A DNA stretch of 24,000 nucleotides from an uncultured Anaerococcus sp. (lineage in GTDB: Bacteria > Bacillota > Clostridia > Tissierellales > Peptoniphilaceae), in the NCBI RefSeq assembly GCF_963510575.1, contig NZ_CAUPFR010000006.1:3119-27118 (forward strand), in the 5' to 3' direction. The position numbers were made by a program, and so were the translations under genes. Below, piece after piece: positions 21,541 to 24,000 of this stretch; position 1 is the stretch's first letter, and each line of letters opens with the position of its first letter. Under the pieces are notes generated by a model. It saw nothing but the letters and a program-made list of their open reading frames with translations. It searched no databases and was not told the origin of the DNA.

Positions 21541-22728
21541 CTAGTTGTTTTTCTTTCTGGTTGCAACAATGCCAGCCATTGAGATAGCAAGTGTTGAAAG
21601 AACTGGAGCTACGCTTTCAAGACCAGTCTTTGGATTCTTGCGACCAGCTTGACGAGCAGGAGCTTGTTTCTTGTTTTCTGCTTCTACTACTTTTTTCTTG
21701 TTTTCTTTAGCTTTAGATTTTTCTTTAACTTCTGTAGTTTCTTTTTCTTTAGCTTCTTTTTCAGTTTCTACTTCTTTGCTTTCTTCTAGTTTAGGAAGAG
21801 TAACTTCTTCGTCAACCTTACCAGGTTTGATTAATGGGTATTCATAATCATAAGATGGAACTGGTTTAACATCTGGTTTAACATCTGGTTTAACATCTGG
21901 TTTCTTTTCTTCTTTTTCATTTATTTCTGGAACAAAGTAGTAATTATTATTTAAACCCTTCATAATTCTGAAAGAATTGAATTCAGGGTGTTTTTTAAGA
22001 TATGCTTTAGCTGCAATTTCAGCTTGTTCTCTACTGATGTATCCATCTTCAGAGTTTTTCTTGATTAGATAATCATCTATTGTAGTAGTTTTTTTATCTT
22101 TTTTTTCTACCTTCTTATCATCTTTTTGATTTTCAAGCCATTCATCAATTGTGACAAGTTTGTTCTTTTTGTTATATTCATCAATAGTCATTGAATTAGA
22201 CTTAAATTGATTTAGAAGCTTTTCTTTCATTTGATCTACATCATAAACAGAATCTAAGCCTTCAAGTCTTTTTAATACTTTTTCATTTTTAAGACCAGCT
22301 TTTCTCAATTCTTCTTTAGCTTTTTTAACTTCTGCTTCTATTAATGGAGCAACTCTTTCTTTTTCTTCTTTAGCTTTTCTAGCATCATCTTTTTCTTTAA
22401 ATGCTTTTTCTGCTTCTTTTACAGCTTTATCAGCATTAGTAACTTTAGTTTGTGCATTAGTTACAGCTTGTTTTGCTTGTTCTATAGCCGCATCATTATT
22501 TTCTTTTTTTTCTTCTTCAGCTTGTTTTGCTTTTGCATCAGCTAAATCTTTATTAGCTTTTTCCAAATCTTTTTTAGCTGCTTGAACATCTTGATCAAGA
22601 TCATAAAGTGTCTTTTCTGCTGGTGCTGGAGCAGCTGGTTGATTTCCTGCATCTTGAGCATGGGCAACACCACCTGAAAGGATAAGACCTGCAGATAAGG
22701 CAACTGCTAGTATTCTATTTGTTTTCAT
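21541..22728 (-). CDS. Cell-wall-anchored surface protein: signal peptide, Ala/Lys/Glu-rich coiled coil, GA-module-like segment, KPDV repeats, NPKTG sorting signal
   Basis: Signal peptide 'MKTNRILAVALSAGLILSGGVAHA'. The C-terminus 'NPKTG-LESVAPVLSTLAISMAGIVA-TRKKNN' gives a sortase motif, a hydrophobic span and a basic tail. RBS GGAGAT. Confidence 0.8.
   Translation of the reverse strand: MKTNRILAVALSAGLILSGGVAHAQDAGNQPAAPAPAEKTLYDLDQDVQAAKKDLEKANKDLADAKAKQAEEEKKENNDAAIEQAKQAVTNAQTKVTNADKAVKEAEKAFKEKDDARKAKEEKERVAPLIEAEVKKAKEELRKAGLKNEKVLKRLEGLDSVYDVDQMKEKLLNQFKSNSMTIDEYNKKNKLVTIDEWLENQKDDKKVEKKDKKTTTIDDYLIKKNSEDGYISREQAEIAAKAYLKKHPEFNSFRIMKGLNNNYYFVPEINEKEEKKPDVKPDVKPDVKPVPSYDYEYPLIKPGKVDEEVTLPKLEESKEVETEKEAKEKETTEVKEKSKAKENKKKVVEAENKKQAPARQAGRKNPKTGLESVAPVLSTLAISMAGIVATRKKNN
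21861..21903 (-). repeat. 12-bp tandem repeat (3.6 copies) encoding (KPDV)n inside the surface protein gene
   Basis: CTGGTTTAACAT occurs three times, plus a partial copy CTGGTTT. All copies are identical. Confidence 0.9.
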
Positions 22729-22781
22729 AATAATATCTCCTATATTTTTAATTTGTTATTCTATGCTATCTGACTAAATAT

Positions 22782-22810
22782 ATTATATGACATTTTGAGG
22801 ATTTTTTCAA
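22782..22810 (-). promoter_or_regulatory. Sigma-A type promoter of the surface protein gene
   Basis: On the minus strand: TTGAAA (22805-22810), 17-nt spacer, TATAAT (22782-22787). Confidence 0.55.
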
Positions 22811-22894
22811 ATAATATGTAGAAATTTTGTGCTTTTTGTAAAAAATTTTGTGGGTAGGAAATATTTTTACAGGTCATAAAGAAAAAAATCAGAA

Positions 22895-23087
22895 TGACAC
22901 CCCACCGCTATTCCGAGGAAACTGGAGAAATCTCTCGCCATCAACTCCCCCTCGTCTCGAGCGAGCGGAGAACAAGCCCGTCGGCTCGGGGAGACTGGAG
23001 AGACCTCTTGCTATCAACTCCCCCCTCGCTTCGACCGAGCGGAGAACAAGCCCGTCGGCTCGGGGAGACTGGAGAAGTCTCTTTCCA
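22895..23087 (-). repeat. Three head-to-tail copies of the GC-rich repeat core (reverse orientation): 22895-22940, 22941-23013, 23014-23087
   Basis: Units 2 and 3 are 73 and 74 bp and mismatch at only a handful of positions (by-eye alignment). Read on the minus strand, each unit contains 'AGAGnnnTCTCCA', a hairpin insert and 'TCGARRCGAGGGG' (the last block is degenerate in unit 1). Confidence 0.85.
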
Positions 23088-23141
23088 TTTTTATAAAGCA
23101 AATATGGTAAAGGTGTCATGACCACCTAAAATCAAGAATAA

Positions 23142-23235
23142 TTTTACAACAAAATCCCAAGTCCATACCAGGGCCAATCCTAATTTGGTCCAGAGGTTTC
23201 TCCACTTCGGTCGAAACGAGGGTGGTGGGTTTGAG
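23142..23235 (+). repeat. Repeat copy A1: left arm plus core (short hairpin variant)
   Basis: 'TTTTACAACAAAATCCCAAGTCCATACCAGGGCCAATCCTAATTTGGTCCAGAGGTTTCTCCA-CTTCGG-TCGAAACGAGGGTGGTGG'. Confidence 0.85.
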
Positions 23236-23293
23236 TTTGCTTTGAAGATTAAAATTGCTGTTATTTTGAAAATTAATTTCTTTTATAAAAGTG

Positions 23294-23398
23294 AAATCCC
23301 AAGTCCCGACCAGAGCCAATCCTTAGTTGGTCCAGAGATTTCTCCATGCGTTCGTTTCACTCACTTAGTCGAAACGAGGGGTGTGGTGTCGGGATTTG
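23294..23398 (+). repeat. Repeat copy A2: left arm plus core (7-bp stem insert)
   Basis: 'AAATCCCAAGTCCCGACCAGAGCCAATCCTTAGTTGGTCCAGAGATTTCTCCA...TCGTTTC/GAAACGA...GGGGTGTGGTGTCGGGATTT'. The ends are partly complementary (TCCCGAC/GTCGGGA). Confidence 0.85.
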
Positions 23399-23454
23399 TT
23401 CACCTCCCCCCCTCGTCTCGACCGAGCGTAAGCGAGTGGAGAGATCTCTCGCCA
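23399..23454 (-). repeat. Repeat core R3 (reverse orientation), abutting A2
   Basis: The reverse complement reads 'GGCGAGAGATCTCTCCA-CTCGCTTACGCTCGG-TCGAGACGAGGGGGGGAGGTG', colinear with the A2 core. Contains the perfect 12-nt palindrome GAGAGATCTCTC (23439-23450). Confidence 0.8.
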
Positions 23455-23508
23455 CCTTTATATAATTTATATGGTAAAGGTGTCAAGTTATTTTAAAAGC
23501 AAGGTTCA

Positions 23509-23549
23509 TTTTACAAACAAAATCCCAAGTCCCTACCCCAACAATCCCC
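23509..23549 (+). repeat. Repeat copy A3: left arm only (truncated), overlapping the 3' end of the GIY-YIG gene
   Basis: 'ATTTTACAAACAAAATCCCAAGTCCCTACCCCAACAATCC' matches the A1/A2/A4 left arms, then similarity stops. The GIY-YIG stop codon (23533-23535) lies inside it. Confidence 0.7.
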
Positions 23550-23823
23550 AATATAAATCTATCCATTTTGGGTTCATTTTACTTATTATTTTATCTTTCT
23601 TTTTTCTAGACCATTTACCAACTTGGTGTTCCCTTGCTCTTGCGCTTTGGATATCATCATAGCATTCATAATATATCAACCTTGTCACATTGTATTTGTC
23701 AGTGAAGCTATCTTTCAATAGGTGTTCCTTATGCTCGTAGATTCTTCTGATTAAGTCGGTTGTTGAGCCTTTATATAATACTTCGTTTGTTTCATTTGCG
23801 AGCATATAAAAATAAGCTGCCAT
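23533..23823 (-). CDS. Small stand-alone GIY-YIG nuclease family protein (URI-domain only)
   Basis: 96 aa. 'YFYMLANETNEVLYKGSTTDLIRRIYEHK' carries the GIY and YIG elements plus the conserved Arg. 'ARAREHQVGKWSRKKK...MNPKW' carries the catalytic Glu region. RBS AAGGAGA. Confidence 0.8.
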   Translation of the reverse strand: MAAYFYMLANETNEVLYKGSTTDLIRRIYEHKEHLLKDSFTDKYNVTRLIYYECYDDIQSARAREHQVGKWSRKKKDKIISKMNPKWIDLYWGLLG

Positions 23824-23848
23824 AACTTCTCCTTCATATTTATTAATA

Positions 23849-23876
23849 TTTATATACCCAATATTTTGTTTGTCAA
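23849..23876 (-). promoter_or_regulatory. Near-consensus promoter dedicated to the GIY-YIG gene
   Basis: On the minus strand: TTGACA (23871-23876), 16-nt spacer, TATAAA (23849-23854). Confidence 0.5.
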
Positions 23877-23888
23877 AATTTTAAATTT

Positions 23889-24000
23889 AATTACAAAAAC
23901 ATCCCAAGTCCCAACCAGAGCTAATCCTTTGTTGGTCCAGAGATTTCTCCATAGTTTACCTCGAGCGTAGTCGAGAGGAAACAAGGGGTAGTGTTTGACT
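23889..24000 (+). repeat. Repeat copy A4: left arm plus core (long hairpin variant), cut by the window edge
   Basis: 'ATTACAAAAACATCCCAAGTCCCAACCAGAGCTAATCCTTTGTTGGTCCAGAGATTTCTCCA', then an imperfect hairpin GTTTaCCTCGA/TCGAGaGGaAAC (23954-23982), then 'AAGGGGTAGTG'. Confidence 0.8.

What the first reader, a model, noticed from the sequence alone, without database searches (positions are those of the whole stretch)
23509..24000. GIY-YIG nuclease minigene with its own promoter, wedged between a truncated and a full repeat copy: a possible REPtron-like or homing unit
The 96-aa GIY-YIG ORF looks intact (GIY, YIG, Arg and Glu elements) and has a strong RBS and a near-consensus promoter (TTGACA-16-TATAAA, 23849-23876). 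This ~345-bp expression unit fills almost exactly the gap between the A3 left arm and the start of A4 (23889). A3 breaks off at ~23549 and supplies the gene's last codons and stop. In Proteobacteria, REP elements are propagated by a RAYT gene flanked by REPs. By analogy, a stand-alone GIY-YIG nuclease embedded in its own repeat family could be the nuclease that nicks the conserved GAGAnnTCTC palindrome. Alternatively it could be a selfish homing cassette that inserted into a repeat copy. Either would give this widespread but functionally obscure small GIY-YIG family a concrete DNA partner.
Basis: inference. Interest (0 to 1): 0.65.

Follow-up and report, generated by a model that had tools for sequence, protein, structure and literature searches.

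The report
Ssn-type nuclease gene inside hairpin repeats
The small nuclease gene is real, intact and tied to the repeats around it, but it belongs to the Ssn family of single-stranded-DNA nucleases with partner hairpin repeats described in Neisseria in 2025, so this is a new Gram-positive example with a divergent repeat, not a new kind of system.

Summary
It sits inside a copy of a ~210-bp composite repeat.

It is a full-length homolog (39-44% identity, E 1e-22 to 3e-25) of 94-aa Neisseria proteins embedded in canonical NTS arrays. That places it in the Ssn family of site-specific ssDNA nucleases (Chenal et al. 2025, PMC11893778), whose genes are flanked by hairpin repeats and which that paper already compares to REP/RAYT.

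The repeat here does not match the published SRM search pattern. Its core is a co-varying hairpin: a 5-bp stem, a tandem GA, one closing pair and a 6-41 nt loop. The "GAGAnnTCTC palindrome" is the 3' half of that stem.

Linkage is strong but not absolute:
- Both Ssn-like genes in this genome lie within 200 bp of such modules (0.48% of the genome does).
- Nearly all homologs in the genus are flanked by them, and each paralog has its own repeat type.
- 30 of 32 gene-carrying genomes have at least 5 modules. So do 10 of 23 genomes without the gene.

The scan had already met Ssn-like cassettes on other DNA.

Verdict: new member of a known kind, moderate interest.

The parts
23533..23823 (-). Ssn-family single-domain GIY-YIG nuclease gene (96 aa)
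   Evidence: Pfam PF01541 E=3e-13. 39-44% identity over residues 1-95 to NTS-embedded 94-aa Neisseria proteins, E 1e-22 to 3e-25. AF2 pLDDT 94.5 with a GIY-YIG fold. 24 synonymous vs 3 nonsynonymous codon changes against the G004 ortholog.
23829..23834 (-). Ribosome-binding site AAGGAG, 5 nt before the ATG
   Evidence: Read directly from the sequence. GGAG is conserved before the start codon in orthologs.
23849..23876 (-). Promoter-like site TTGACA-16-TATAAA
   Evidence: Read directly from the sequence. Not listed by the consensus scan because the -10 hexamer ends in A. Only the -10 region is conserved in orthologs.
23893..23916 (.). Upstream copy of the ~25-nt direct repeat (ACAAAAACATCCCAAGTCCCAACC) that brackets the gene cassette
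23513..23537 (.). Downstream copy of the direct repeat (ACAAACAAAATCCCAAGTCCCTACC). It contains the stop codon.
23937..23988 (-). Hairpin module upstream of the gene (a variant with an inner CTCGA/TCGAG hairpin), followed by the right arm of the element
23408..23450 (+). Hairpin module downstream of the gene: CCCCCTC-GTCTC-GA-C...G-GA-GAGAT-CTC
23451..23512 (.). Central part of the composite element, with the conserved box TATGGTAAAGGTGTCA (23470-23485)
   Evidence: Aligns with gene-less copies on C30, C2, C20 and window 23084-23140.
23333..23382 (-). Hairpin module (28-nt loop) of a half element, with its arm at 23294-23332
23021..23224 (.). Complete gene-less A-type element: module 23021-23083 (+), central box, arm, module 23191-23224 (-)
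   Evidence: As ssDNA it folds with z = -3.3.
22917..23009 (+). A partial module (22917-22939) and a further module (22947-23009) at the edge of the mosaic

Best explanation
The ORF encodes an Ssn-family nuclease, a single-domain GIY-YIG enzyme of the kind characterised as SsnA in Neisseria meningitidis. The surrounding GC-rich repeats are its cognate recognition elements.

Each repeat module is directional: CC(C)-N1N2N3TC-GA-S...loop...S'-GA-GAN3'N2'N1'-CT. When single-stranded (during replication, transformation or conjugation), a module can form a 5-bp stem extended by a tandem G.A and one closing pair.

By analogy with SsnA/NTS, I infer that the protein binds this hairpin, together with its clade-specific 5' flank, on one strand and cleaves ssDNA nearby. 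I expect no activity on dsDNA or RNA.

Two modules in inverted orientation, plus conserved inner sequence, form a ~210-bp composite unit. The gene with its own promoter occupies the centre of one such unit, which is the NTS-ssnA-NTS type of architecture. Gene-less units look like deletion derivatives formed across the ~25-35-nt internal direct repeat.

Shown here: family homology, gene-repeat linkage, hairpin covariation, paralog-specific repeat types, and purifying selection. Inferred: ssDNA binding and cleavage at the modules, the biological role, and the origin of gene-less units by deletion.
For: Family membership:
- Full-length homology to Neisseria 94-aa proteins that sit in canonical NTS arrays.
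- 36-45% identity to proteobacterial homologs; most of the loci checked have canonical SRMs, in some cases directly beside the gene.
- The family's biochemistry and its repeat association are published (PMC11893778).
- Tyr6, Tyr17, Gly19, Arg27, His31 and Glu65 are conserved. The AF2 model is confident and Slx1/UPF0213/UvrC-like.

Linkage in this genome and genus:
- Both Ssn-like genes of G000 lie within 200 bp of modules. Only 0.48% of the genome does, so P is about 2e-5.
- The UPF0213-type paralog on C57 is operonic with no modules.
- In the 22 genus loci scanned with the module finder, 19 carry several modules around the gene, usually on both sides. L011 has only a doubtful hit, and L018 and L029 have none under this module definition. 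All three carry related GTCA-type hairpin repeats instead.
- 30 of 32 gene-carrying genomes have at least 5 modules.

Hairpin:
- 33 of 78 unbiased hits are fully complementary, against 0-5 in shuffles.
- The closing pair, which was not selected for, is CG 19 / GC 17 / AU 4 / other 4.

Specificity and selection:
- The module 5' flank tracks the protein clade. Paralogs within one genome each have their own type.
- 24 synonymous against 3 nonsynonymous codon changes versus G004.
Against: - The published SRM search pattern gives 1 hit in the genome (shuffles give 0-3) and none in the 29 GIY-YIG loci scanned. The repeat is therefore outside the definition used in the paper.
- Single modules are not thermodynamically better than shuffled sequence as ssDNA (z about 0). 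Some long-loop copies prefer an alternative internal pairing.
- Ten of 23 genus genomes without the gene still carry 6 to at least 120 modules. They include a 98%-complete genome in 5 contigs. The repeats therefore do not depend on the gene for persistence.
- No biochemical data exist for this protein.
- CDD cd10448 assignment could not be run.
- The Neisseria proteins were identified as SsnA by genus, length and NTS context, not by accession.
Confidence: 0.72

Rival explanations
1. The gene-bearing unit is an autonomous mobile element and the ~210-bp gene-less units are its MITE-like derivatives. In this reading the Ssn nuclease acts as the mobilising enzyme through single-strand hairpin recognition, functionally like RAYT/REP or IS200/IS605 TnpA. 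This overlaps with the best explanation: it adds propagation as the function.
For: - The gene lies in the centre of a unit bounded by inverted modules, for both paralogs, each in its own element type with gene-less copies alongside.
- Genomes hold from tens up to the ~120 count cap of modules.
- The same tRNA-upstream intergenic site holds an A-type element in G000 and a ~980-bp B-type array in G004.
- The 97%-identical gene of G004 lies in a different genomic context.
- The Ssn paper raises the same idea.
Against: - No target-site duplication or precise excision/insertion event was found.
- Strain-level differences are whole-unit gains or losses between repeated arms, as expected from homologous recombination.
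- Within the species the gene is always next to sdaAA.
- A GIY-YIG nuclease has no known strand-transfer chemistry.
- Repeats persist in genomes without the gene.
Confidence: 0.2
2. A selfish free-standing homing endonuclease cassette inserted by chance into one repeat copy, and the repeats are unrelated to it.
For: The cassette has its own promoter and is bracketed by a direct duplication of repeat sequence.
Against: - The protein is 96 aa and single-domain, with no DNA-binding module of the I-TevI/Seg type. The NCBIfam group I intron endonuclease model scores 18.8 bits against a 56-bit cutoff.
- The second paralog and most homologs in the genus are also embedded in cognate repeats.
- The repeat type co-varies with the protein clade.
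Confidence: 0.04
3. The neighbourhood is coincidental. The repeats are host REP-like regulatory or terminator elements that accumulate in permissive intergenic 'junk' regions, and the small gene simply resides there.
For: - Repeats are plentiful in genomes lacking the gene.
- The mosaic here is part of a 2.4-kb variable island.
Against: - Both Ssn-like genes lie within the 0.48% of the genome that is near modules.
- The same association recurs across the genus and, with different repeats, in Neisseria and Sphingopyxis.
- Repeat types are paralog-specific within one genome.
Confidence: 0.04

Closest known systems
Ssn family (SsnA of Neisseria meningitidis; CDD cd10448) with NTS/SRM hairpin repeats; Chenal et al., Nat Commun 2025, PMC11893778
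   Same: - Single-domain GIY-YIG protein of about 95 aa, homologous over its full length, with the same C-terminal K-W-x-R-x-x-K...N-P-x-W-x-D-L motif.
- The gene is flanked on both sides by directional hairpin repeats that also occur in many gene-less copies, mostly intergenic.
- The repeats form mosaics next to a surface-protein gene, as NTS clusters do in Neisseria.
- Some genomes have repeats but no gene.
   Different: - The repeat does not match the published SRM pattern.
- The hairpin has a short 5-bp stem with a tandem GA and a long variable loop, not an 8-bp GC stem with a 3-4-nt loop.
- In this clade the 5' flank is CCCTC, not GTCA.
- Modules are organised in ~210-bp composite units with conserved inner sequence.
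- The host is a low-GC Gram-positive genus.
- Two orthogonal paralog/repeat pairs coexist in one genome.
- No biochemistry exists for this member.
REP/BIME elements with RAYT (REPtrons)
   Same: A nuclease gene flanked by inverted copies of the hairpin repeat that is dispersed in the genome. The repeats cluster into mosaics.
   Different: The enzyme is GIY-YIG, not a HUH/Y1 transposase. A propagation role is unproven.
Neisserial intergenic mosaic elements (NIMEs: RS units separated by dRS3/NTS)
   Same: Arrays of ~50-200-bp units delimited by inverted hairpin repeats. Unit number varies between strains, and the arrays lie next to surface-protein genes.
   Different: Unrelated sequence and a different phylum.
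UPF0213 / YazA-YhbQ small GIY-YIG proteins (cd10456; PDB 1ZG2, 1YWL) and the Slx1 nuclease domain
   Same: Same fold and similar size; these are the best structural matches.
   Different: Only marginal sequence similarity (E=0.015). The UPF0213 paralog of this genome is operonic, is found in most genomes of the genus, and has no repeats.

Membership tests
Ssn nuclease family (cd10448) | Single-domain GIY-YIG protein of about 94 aa | tested here: met
   96 aa. PF01541 covers residues 3-76 and no other domain is found. The AF2 model is one compact domain, pLDDT 94.5.
Ssn nuclease family (cd10448) | Homology to Neisseria SsnA (the paper's criterion: tblastn E < 1e-10) | tested here: met
   39-44% identity over residues 1-95, E 1e-22 to 3e-25, to 94-aa proteins of 21/61 Neisseria genomes; all ten loci examined carry canonical NTS repeats around the gene. 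Caveat: these were identified as SsnA by context and length, not by accession.
Ssn nuclease family (cd10448) | Best CDD hit is cd10448 (GIY-YIG_unchar_3) | not testable with these tools
   No CDD/rpsblast is available. Indirect evidence: only E=0.015 to the UPF0213 protein BH0048, and no tblastn hit to the genome's own UPF0213 paralog.
Ssn nuclease family (cd10448) | Catalytic GIY-YIG residues present (two Tyr, Arg, metal-binding Glu) | tested here: met
   Y17, G19, R27 and E65 are invariant; Y6 and H31 are nearly invariant in alignment A1.
Ssn nuclease family (cd10448) | Gene flanked by SRM repeats as defined by the published degenerate pattern | tested here: not met
   1 hit in the whole genome (shuffles give 0-3) and 0 hits in the 29 GIY-YIG loci scanned.
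Ssn nuclease family (cd10448) | Gene flanked on both sides by directional hairpin repeats that are dispersed in the genome (the broad sense of SRM: 20-50-nt hairpin-forming repeats) | tested here: met
   Modules lie about 115 bp upstream and about 80 bp downstream of the gene, among about 30 in the genome. Covariation supports the hairpin.
Ssn nuclease family (cd10448) | Site-specific cleavage of ssDNA only, next to the repeat | not testable with these tools
   Needs purified protein and oligonucleotide assays.
REPtron (RAYT + REP) | HUH/Y1 transposase (RAYT) as the embedded gene | tested here: not met
   The embedded gene is GIY-YIG.
REPtron (RAYT + REP) | Gene flanked by inverted copies of the dispersed hairpin repeat | tested here: met
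   In several loci, such as C85, L012, L015, L016 and L025, the nearest upstream module is in + orientation and the nearest downstream module is in - orientation. In the window the upstream variant module was placed by eye and by pattern match.
GIY-YIG homing endonucleases (I-TevI, Seg) | Nuclease domain joined to a C-terminal DNA-binding region (about 250 aa), in an intron or free-standing in phage | tested here: not met
   96 aa. TIGR01453 scores 18.8 bits against a 56-bit cutoff. The context is chromosomal and intergenic.
MITE / IS-type transposable element | Terminal inverted repeats plus target-site duplication and insertion polymorphism | tested here: inconclusive
   Inverted modules bound the ~210-bp unit. 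No target-site duplication was recognised. The polymorphisms seen are whole-unit changes or different element types at one site.

The most novel reading that the evidence does not exclude
The ~210-bp composite units are non-autonomous mobile elements and the gene-bearing units are their autonomous forms. On this reading Ssn nucleases would be the mobilising enzymes of a transposon class that uses a GIY-YIG nuclease. This genome would hold two orthogonal nuclease/element pairs (A-type and B-type) that could be used to decode hairpin specificity.
Probability: 0.2. Interest if true: 0.7.

Novelty: new member of a known kind. Interest (0 to 1): 0.35.

Why it matters
It extends the Ssn nuclease/hairpin-repeat partnership to a low-GC Gram-positive genus, where the published SRM search pattern finds nothing. 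The reported 71% association is therefore probably an underestimate.

The hairpin here has a clearly different shape: a short stem, a tandem G.A and a long loop. The genome also offers natural specificity pairs. Two paralogs, each with its own repeat type, coexist in one genome, and the 5' flank tracks the protein clade. These pairs would help in working out how a 96-residue protein reads ssDNA, and in choosing new enzyme/site pairs for ssDNA tools.

It does not open a new category.

Tried and rejected
- Rfam scan of 22700-24000 at E<=1 gave only a chance mir-345 hit, so the repeats are no known RNA family.
- Literature searches for GIY-YIG with MITE or COG2827 found nothing relevant. The Ssn paper came as a lead from earlier scan notes.
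- The published SRM pattern gave no enrichment.
- The first two Neisseria genomes reached (N. lactamica NS19, N. mucosa) have NTS but no Ssn homolog. A genus-wide search was needed.
- Thermodynamic folding of single modules gave no support.
- No empty-site strain was found. Every contig with the identical nuclease, or with the two sdaAA variants tested, carries the cassette.
- No target-site duplications were recognised at the element ends.
- The reading of GAGAnnTCTC as a ds palindromic site was rejected. When the seventh base is C the palindrome breaks but the upstream partner is G, and the 'nn' bases are matched by bases 6-41 nt upstream.

Full report
**1. Observation**

The window ends in a GC-rich repeat mosaic (22890-24000) within an AT-rich genome of 1.70 Mb in 150 contigs (per-contig GC 31-39% in those checked; 83% complete).

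- The ORF 23533..23823 on the minus strand encodes 96 aa and matches Pfam GIY-YIG (PF01541, E=3e-13, residues 3-76).
- AAGGAG lies 5 nt before the ATG.
The consensus scanner omits it because its rule needs a T at the end of the -10 hexamer.
- Only the -10 part (GGGTATATA) is conserved in orthologs.
- The gene is functional by evolutionary criteria. Against the ortholog in genome G004 it shows 90.7% nucleotide and 97% protein identity, with 24 synonymous and 3 nonsynonymous codon differences.

**2. Anatomy of the repeat**

Alignment with gene-less copies on contigs C30, C2 and C20, and at window 23015-23240, shows a composite unit of about 210 bp. It reads: module L, a box GCCAyyTTTAT...TATGGTAAAGGTGTC, about 30 AT-rich nt, an arm AAATCCCAAGTCCnnACCAGAGCCAATCC...TTGGTCCAGAGnTTTCTCC, then module R in inverted orientation.

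The gene-bearing copy follows this order up to 23537, diverges into the 3' end of the gene, and rejoins at 23893. A ~355-bp cassette (promoter plus gene) therefore lies in the unit. It is bracketed by a ~25-nt direct repeat (23513-23537 and 23893-23916) that extends, more loosely, over the last codons.

The family-wide C-terminal motif D-L-Y-W-x-x-x is encoded there. I therefore infer that the arm of the gene-less units derives from the gene's 3' end, and that gene-less units arise by deletion between these direct repeats. This is inference only.

The second paralog (C85:292-576, 48% identity) sits in the same way in the centre of a different unit (B-type), next to a gene-less B-type unit.

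**3. The module is a hairpin, not a palindrome**

Modules read CC(C)-N1N2N3TC-GA-S...loop of 6-41 nt...S'-GA-GAN3'N2'N1'-CT.

- A pattern that fixes only the invariant letters finds 78 hits in the genome. In 33 of them all three free positions are complementary, against 0-5 of 49-59 hits in locally shuffled genomes.
- About 30 real modules lie in about 15 clusters.
- Stem variants across the genus include ATCTC/GAGAT, ATTTC/GAAAT, ATGTC/GACAT, ACTTC/GAAGT, ACCTC/GAGGT, GTCTC/GAGAC and ATATC/GATAT.
- In a MAFFT alignment of 44 modules, the extra closing pair beyond the tandem GA was not used to select the sequences. It is C-G in 19, G-C in 17, A-T in 4 and unpaired in 4.
- Long loops often carry their own co-varying inner hairpin.
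- As naked ssDNA the single modules fold no better than shuffles (z about 0). The support is therefore evolutionary, not thermodynamic. A whole 226-nt unit folds with z = -3.3 through pairing of its two ends.
- No Rfam family matches.

**4. What the gene is**

Earlier notes of this scan pointed to Chenal et al. 2025 (PMC11893778). That paper shows the following:

- SsnA of Neisseria meningitidis is a 94-aa single-domain GIY-YIG protein (CDD cd10448).
- It binds the NTS hairpin repeat and cuts next to it, on single-stranded DNA only and on one strand only.
- Homologs in many phyla are flanked by related hairpins (SRM).
- The NTS-ssnA-NTS layout resembles an IS and the REP/RAYT case.

I tested membership directly. 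A scan for the NTS pattern gave a Neisseria handle. A profile of 16 proteins of our type found 94-aa proteins in 21 of 61 Neisseria genomes. All ten loci examined carry canonical NTS repeats around the gene, in some as dense arrays, and our protein aligns to them over residues 1-95 at 39-44% identity, E 1e-22 to 3e-25.

Homologs in Sphingopyxis, Endozoicomonas and Cupriavidus (36-45% identity) mostly have canonical SRMs nearby, in some cases directly beside the gene.

By contrast, the protein hits the UPF0213 structure BH0048 only at E=0.015. It does not detect the UPF0213-type paralog of its own genome. That paralog is operonic, overlaps the preceding gene and has no modules.

The AF2 model (pLDDT 94.5) is a GIY-YIG fold closest to BH0048, Slx1 and the UvrC N-terminal domain. 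No Ssn structure is in the PDB.

**5. Linkage**

- In this genome, 0.48% of bases lie within 200 bp of a module, and both Ssn-like genes do (P about 2e-5).
- In the 22 genus loci scanned with the module finder, 19 carry several modules around the gene, usually on both sides. L011 has only a doubtful hit, and L018 and L029 have none. All three carry related GTCA-type hairpins that resemble the NTS even more.
- The five bases before the stem track the protein clade: CCCTC/CCCTT, CGCC, CACCC, xxxCC, TTGTC. Where one genome has two paralogs (G000, G004, G016, G014), each is flanked by its own type. The pattern is therefore not just a species effect.
- Across 55 genomes of the genus, a covariance model of the module (R1) and a profile of the protein give this table:

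| Genomes | With at least 5 modules | Notes |
|---|---|---|
| 32 with a full-length gene | 30 | |
| 23 without the gene | 10 | from 6 up to the 120-match count cap; includes a 98%-complete genome and one with only a gene fragment |

  The other 13 gene-less genomes have at most 2 modules.
- The link is strong but one-directional: the repeats outlive the gene. Kin are not independent, so I give no p-value.
- The published SRM pattern finds 1 site in this genome (shuffles give 0-3) and none in the loci. This genus would therefore have been scored as SRM-negative.

**6. Dynamics**

- In G016 the PPK2 and sdaAA genes are 180 bp apart with no repeats. In this genome they are 2.57 kb apart. The gap holds a surface-anchored coiled-coil protein gene (21541-22728), the mosaic and the nuclease gene.
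- In G004 the sdaAA site also lacks the cassette. The 97%-identical gene lies elsewhere, inside a conserved ~650-bp unit.
- Within the species the identical protein is on at least 15 metagenome contigs. Wherever upstream sequence is present, it lies next to sdaAA, but with different numbers of flanking units. One strain has a whole extra gene-less unit upstream of the gene, and another has a different mosaic downstream.
- A tRNA-upstream site holds one A-type unit here and a ~980-bp B-type array in G004.
- I found no target-site duplication and no precise insertion event. The changes seen fit recombination between repeated arms at least as well as transposition.

**7. Verdict**

It re-derives a system published in 2025, and this scan has already met Ssn-like cassettes on other DNA, mostly in CPR bacteria.

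What is new here is modest:
- a Gram-positive genus;
- a repeat outside the published SRM definition, with a distinct hairpin design and composite units;
- two orthogonal paralog/repeat pairs in one genome.

Whether the nuclease spreads the repeats remains open.

Noticed in passing
window 21462-24005: Relative to genome G016, where PPK2 and sdaAA are 180 bp apart with no repeats, this genome carries a 2.4-2.6-kb island. It holds a 395-aa signal-peptide/coiled-coil protein with a C-terminal membrane-anchor-like tail (only a weak DUF5633 hit), the repeat mosaic and the nuclease gene. This parallels the NTS clusters next to surface-protein genes in Neisseria.
   Followed up: partly
G000 contig C85:1-1100 (L026): A second Ssn-like paralog (94 aa, 48% identity) lies in the centre of a different (B-type) composite unit. 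It is bracketed by an inner inverted repeat GATGCATCG/CGATGCAT, and a gene-less B-type unit sits directly beside it.
   Followed up: partly
G000 C2:41084-41309 vs L182:2271-3250 (G004): The same intergenic site upstream of a tRNA gene holds one A-type unit in G000 and about 980 bp of B-type units in G004. The site looks like a hot spot for these elements.
   Followed up: partly
genus genomes G001, G012, G002, G110, G108: Near-complete genomes without an intact Ssn-like gene still carry 28 to at least 120 modules. G012 keeps only a 57-aa gene fragment. G007, G009, G123 and G134 have copies with an internal stop codon.
   Followed up: no
L054 / L097 (Neisseria lactamica NS19, N. mucosa): Both genomes contain canonical NTS repeats but no detectable Ssn homolog, even with a profile at E<=1. 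This is the same repeats-without-gene situation as in this genus.
   Followed up: partly
L015, L016, L028 modules: The long loops of one module type carry an inner hairpin whose sequence differs between copies while staying complementary (for example GAAGC-TTTT-GCTTC, AATCC-GGTAG-GATT, AAGCC-CTTA-GGCTT).
   Followed up: no
G000 C57:3102-3356 (L031:1501-1755): An 84-aa UPF0213-type GIY-YIG gene overlaps the stop of the preceding 202-aa ORF and has no repeats. Most genomes of the genus have a similar UPF0213-type hit.
   Followed up: partly
L188:966-1386: One strain of the same species has an entire extra gene-less unit (~237 bp) between sdaAA and the nuclease gene. The module next to the gene is a different variant there, which suggests recombination between units.
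   Followed up: yes
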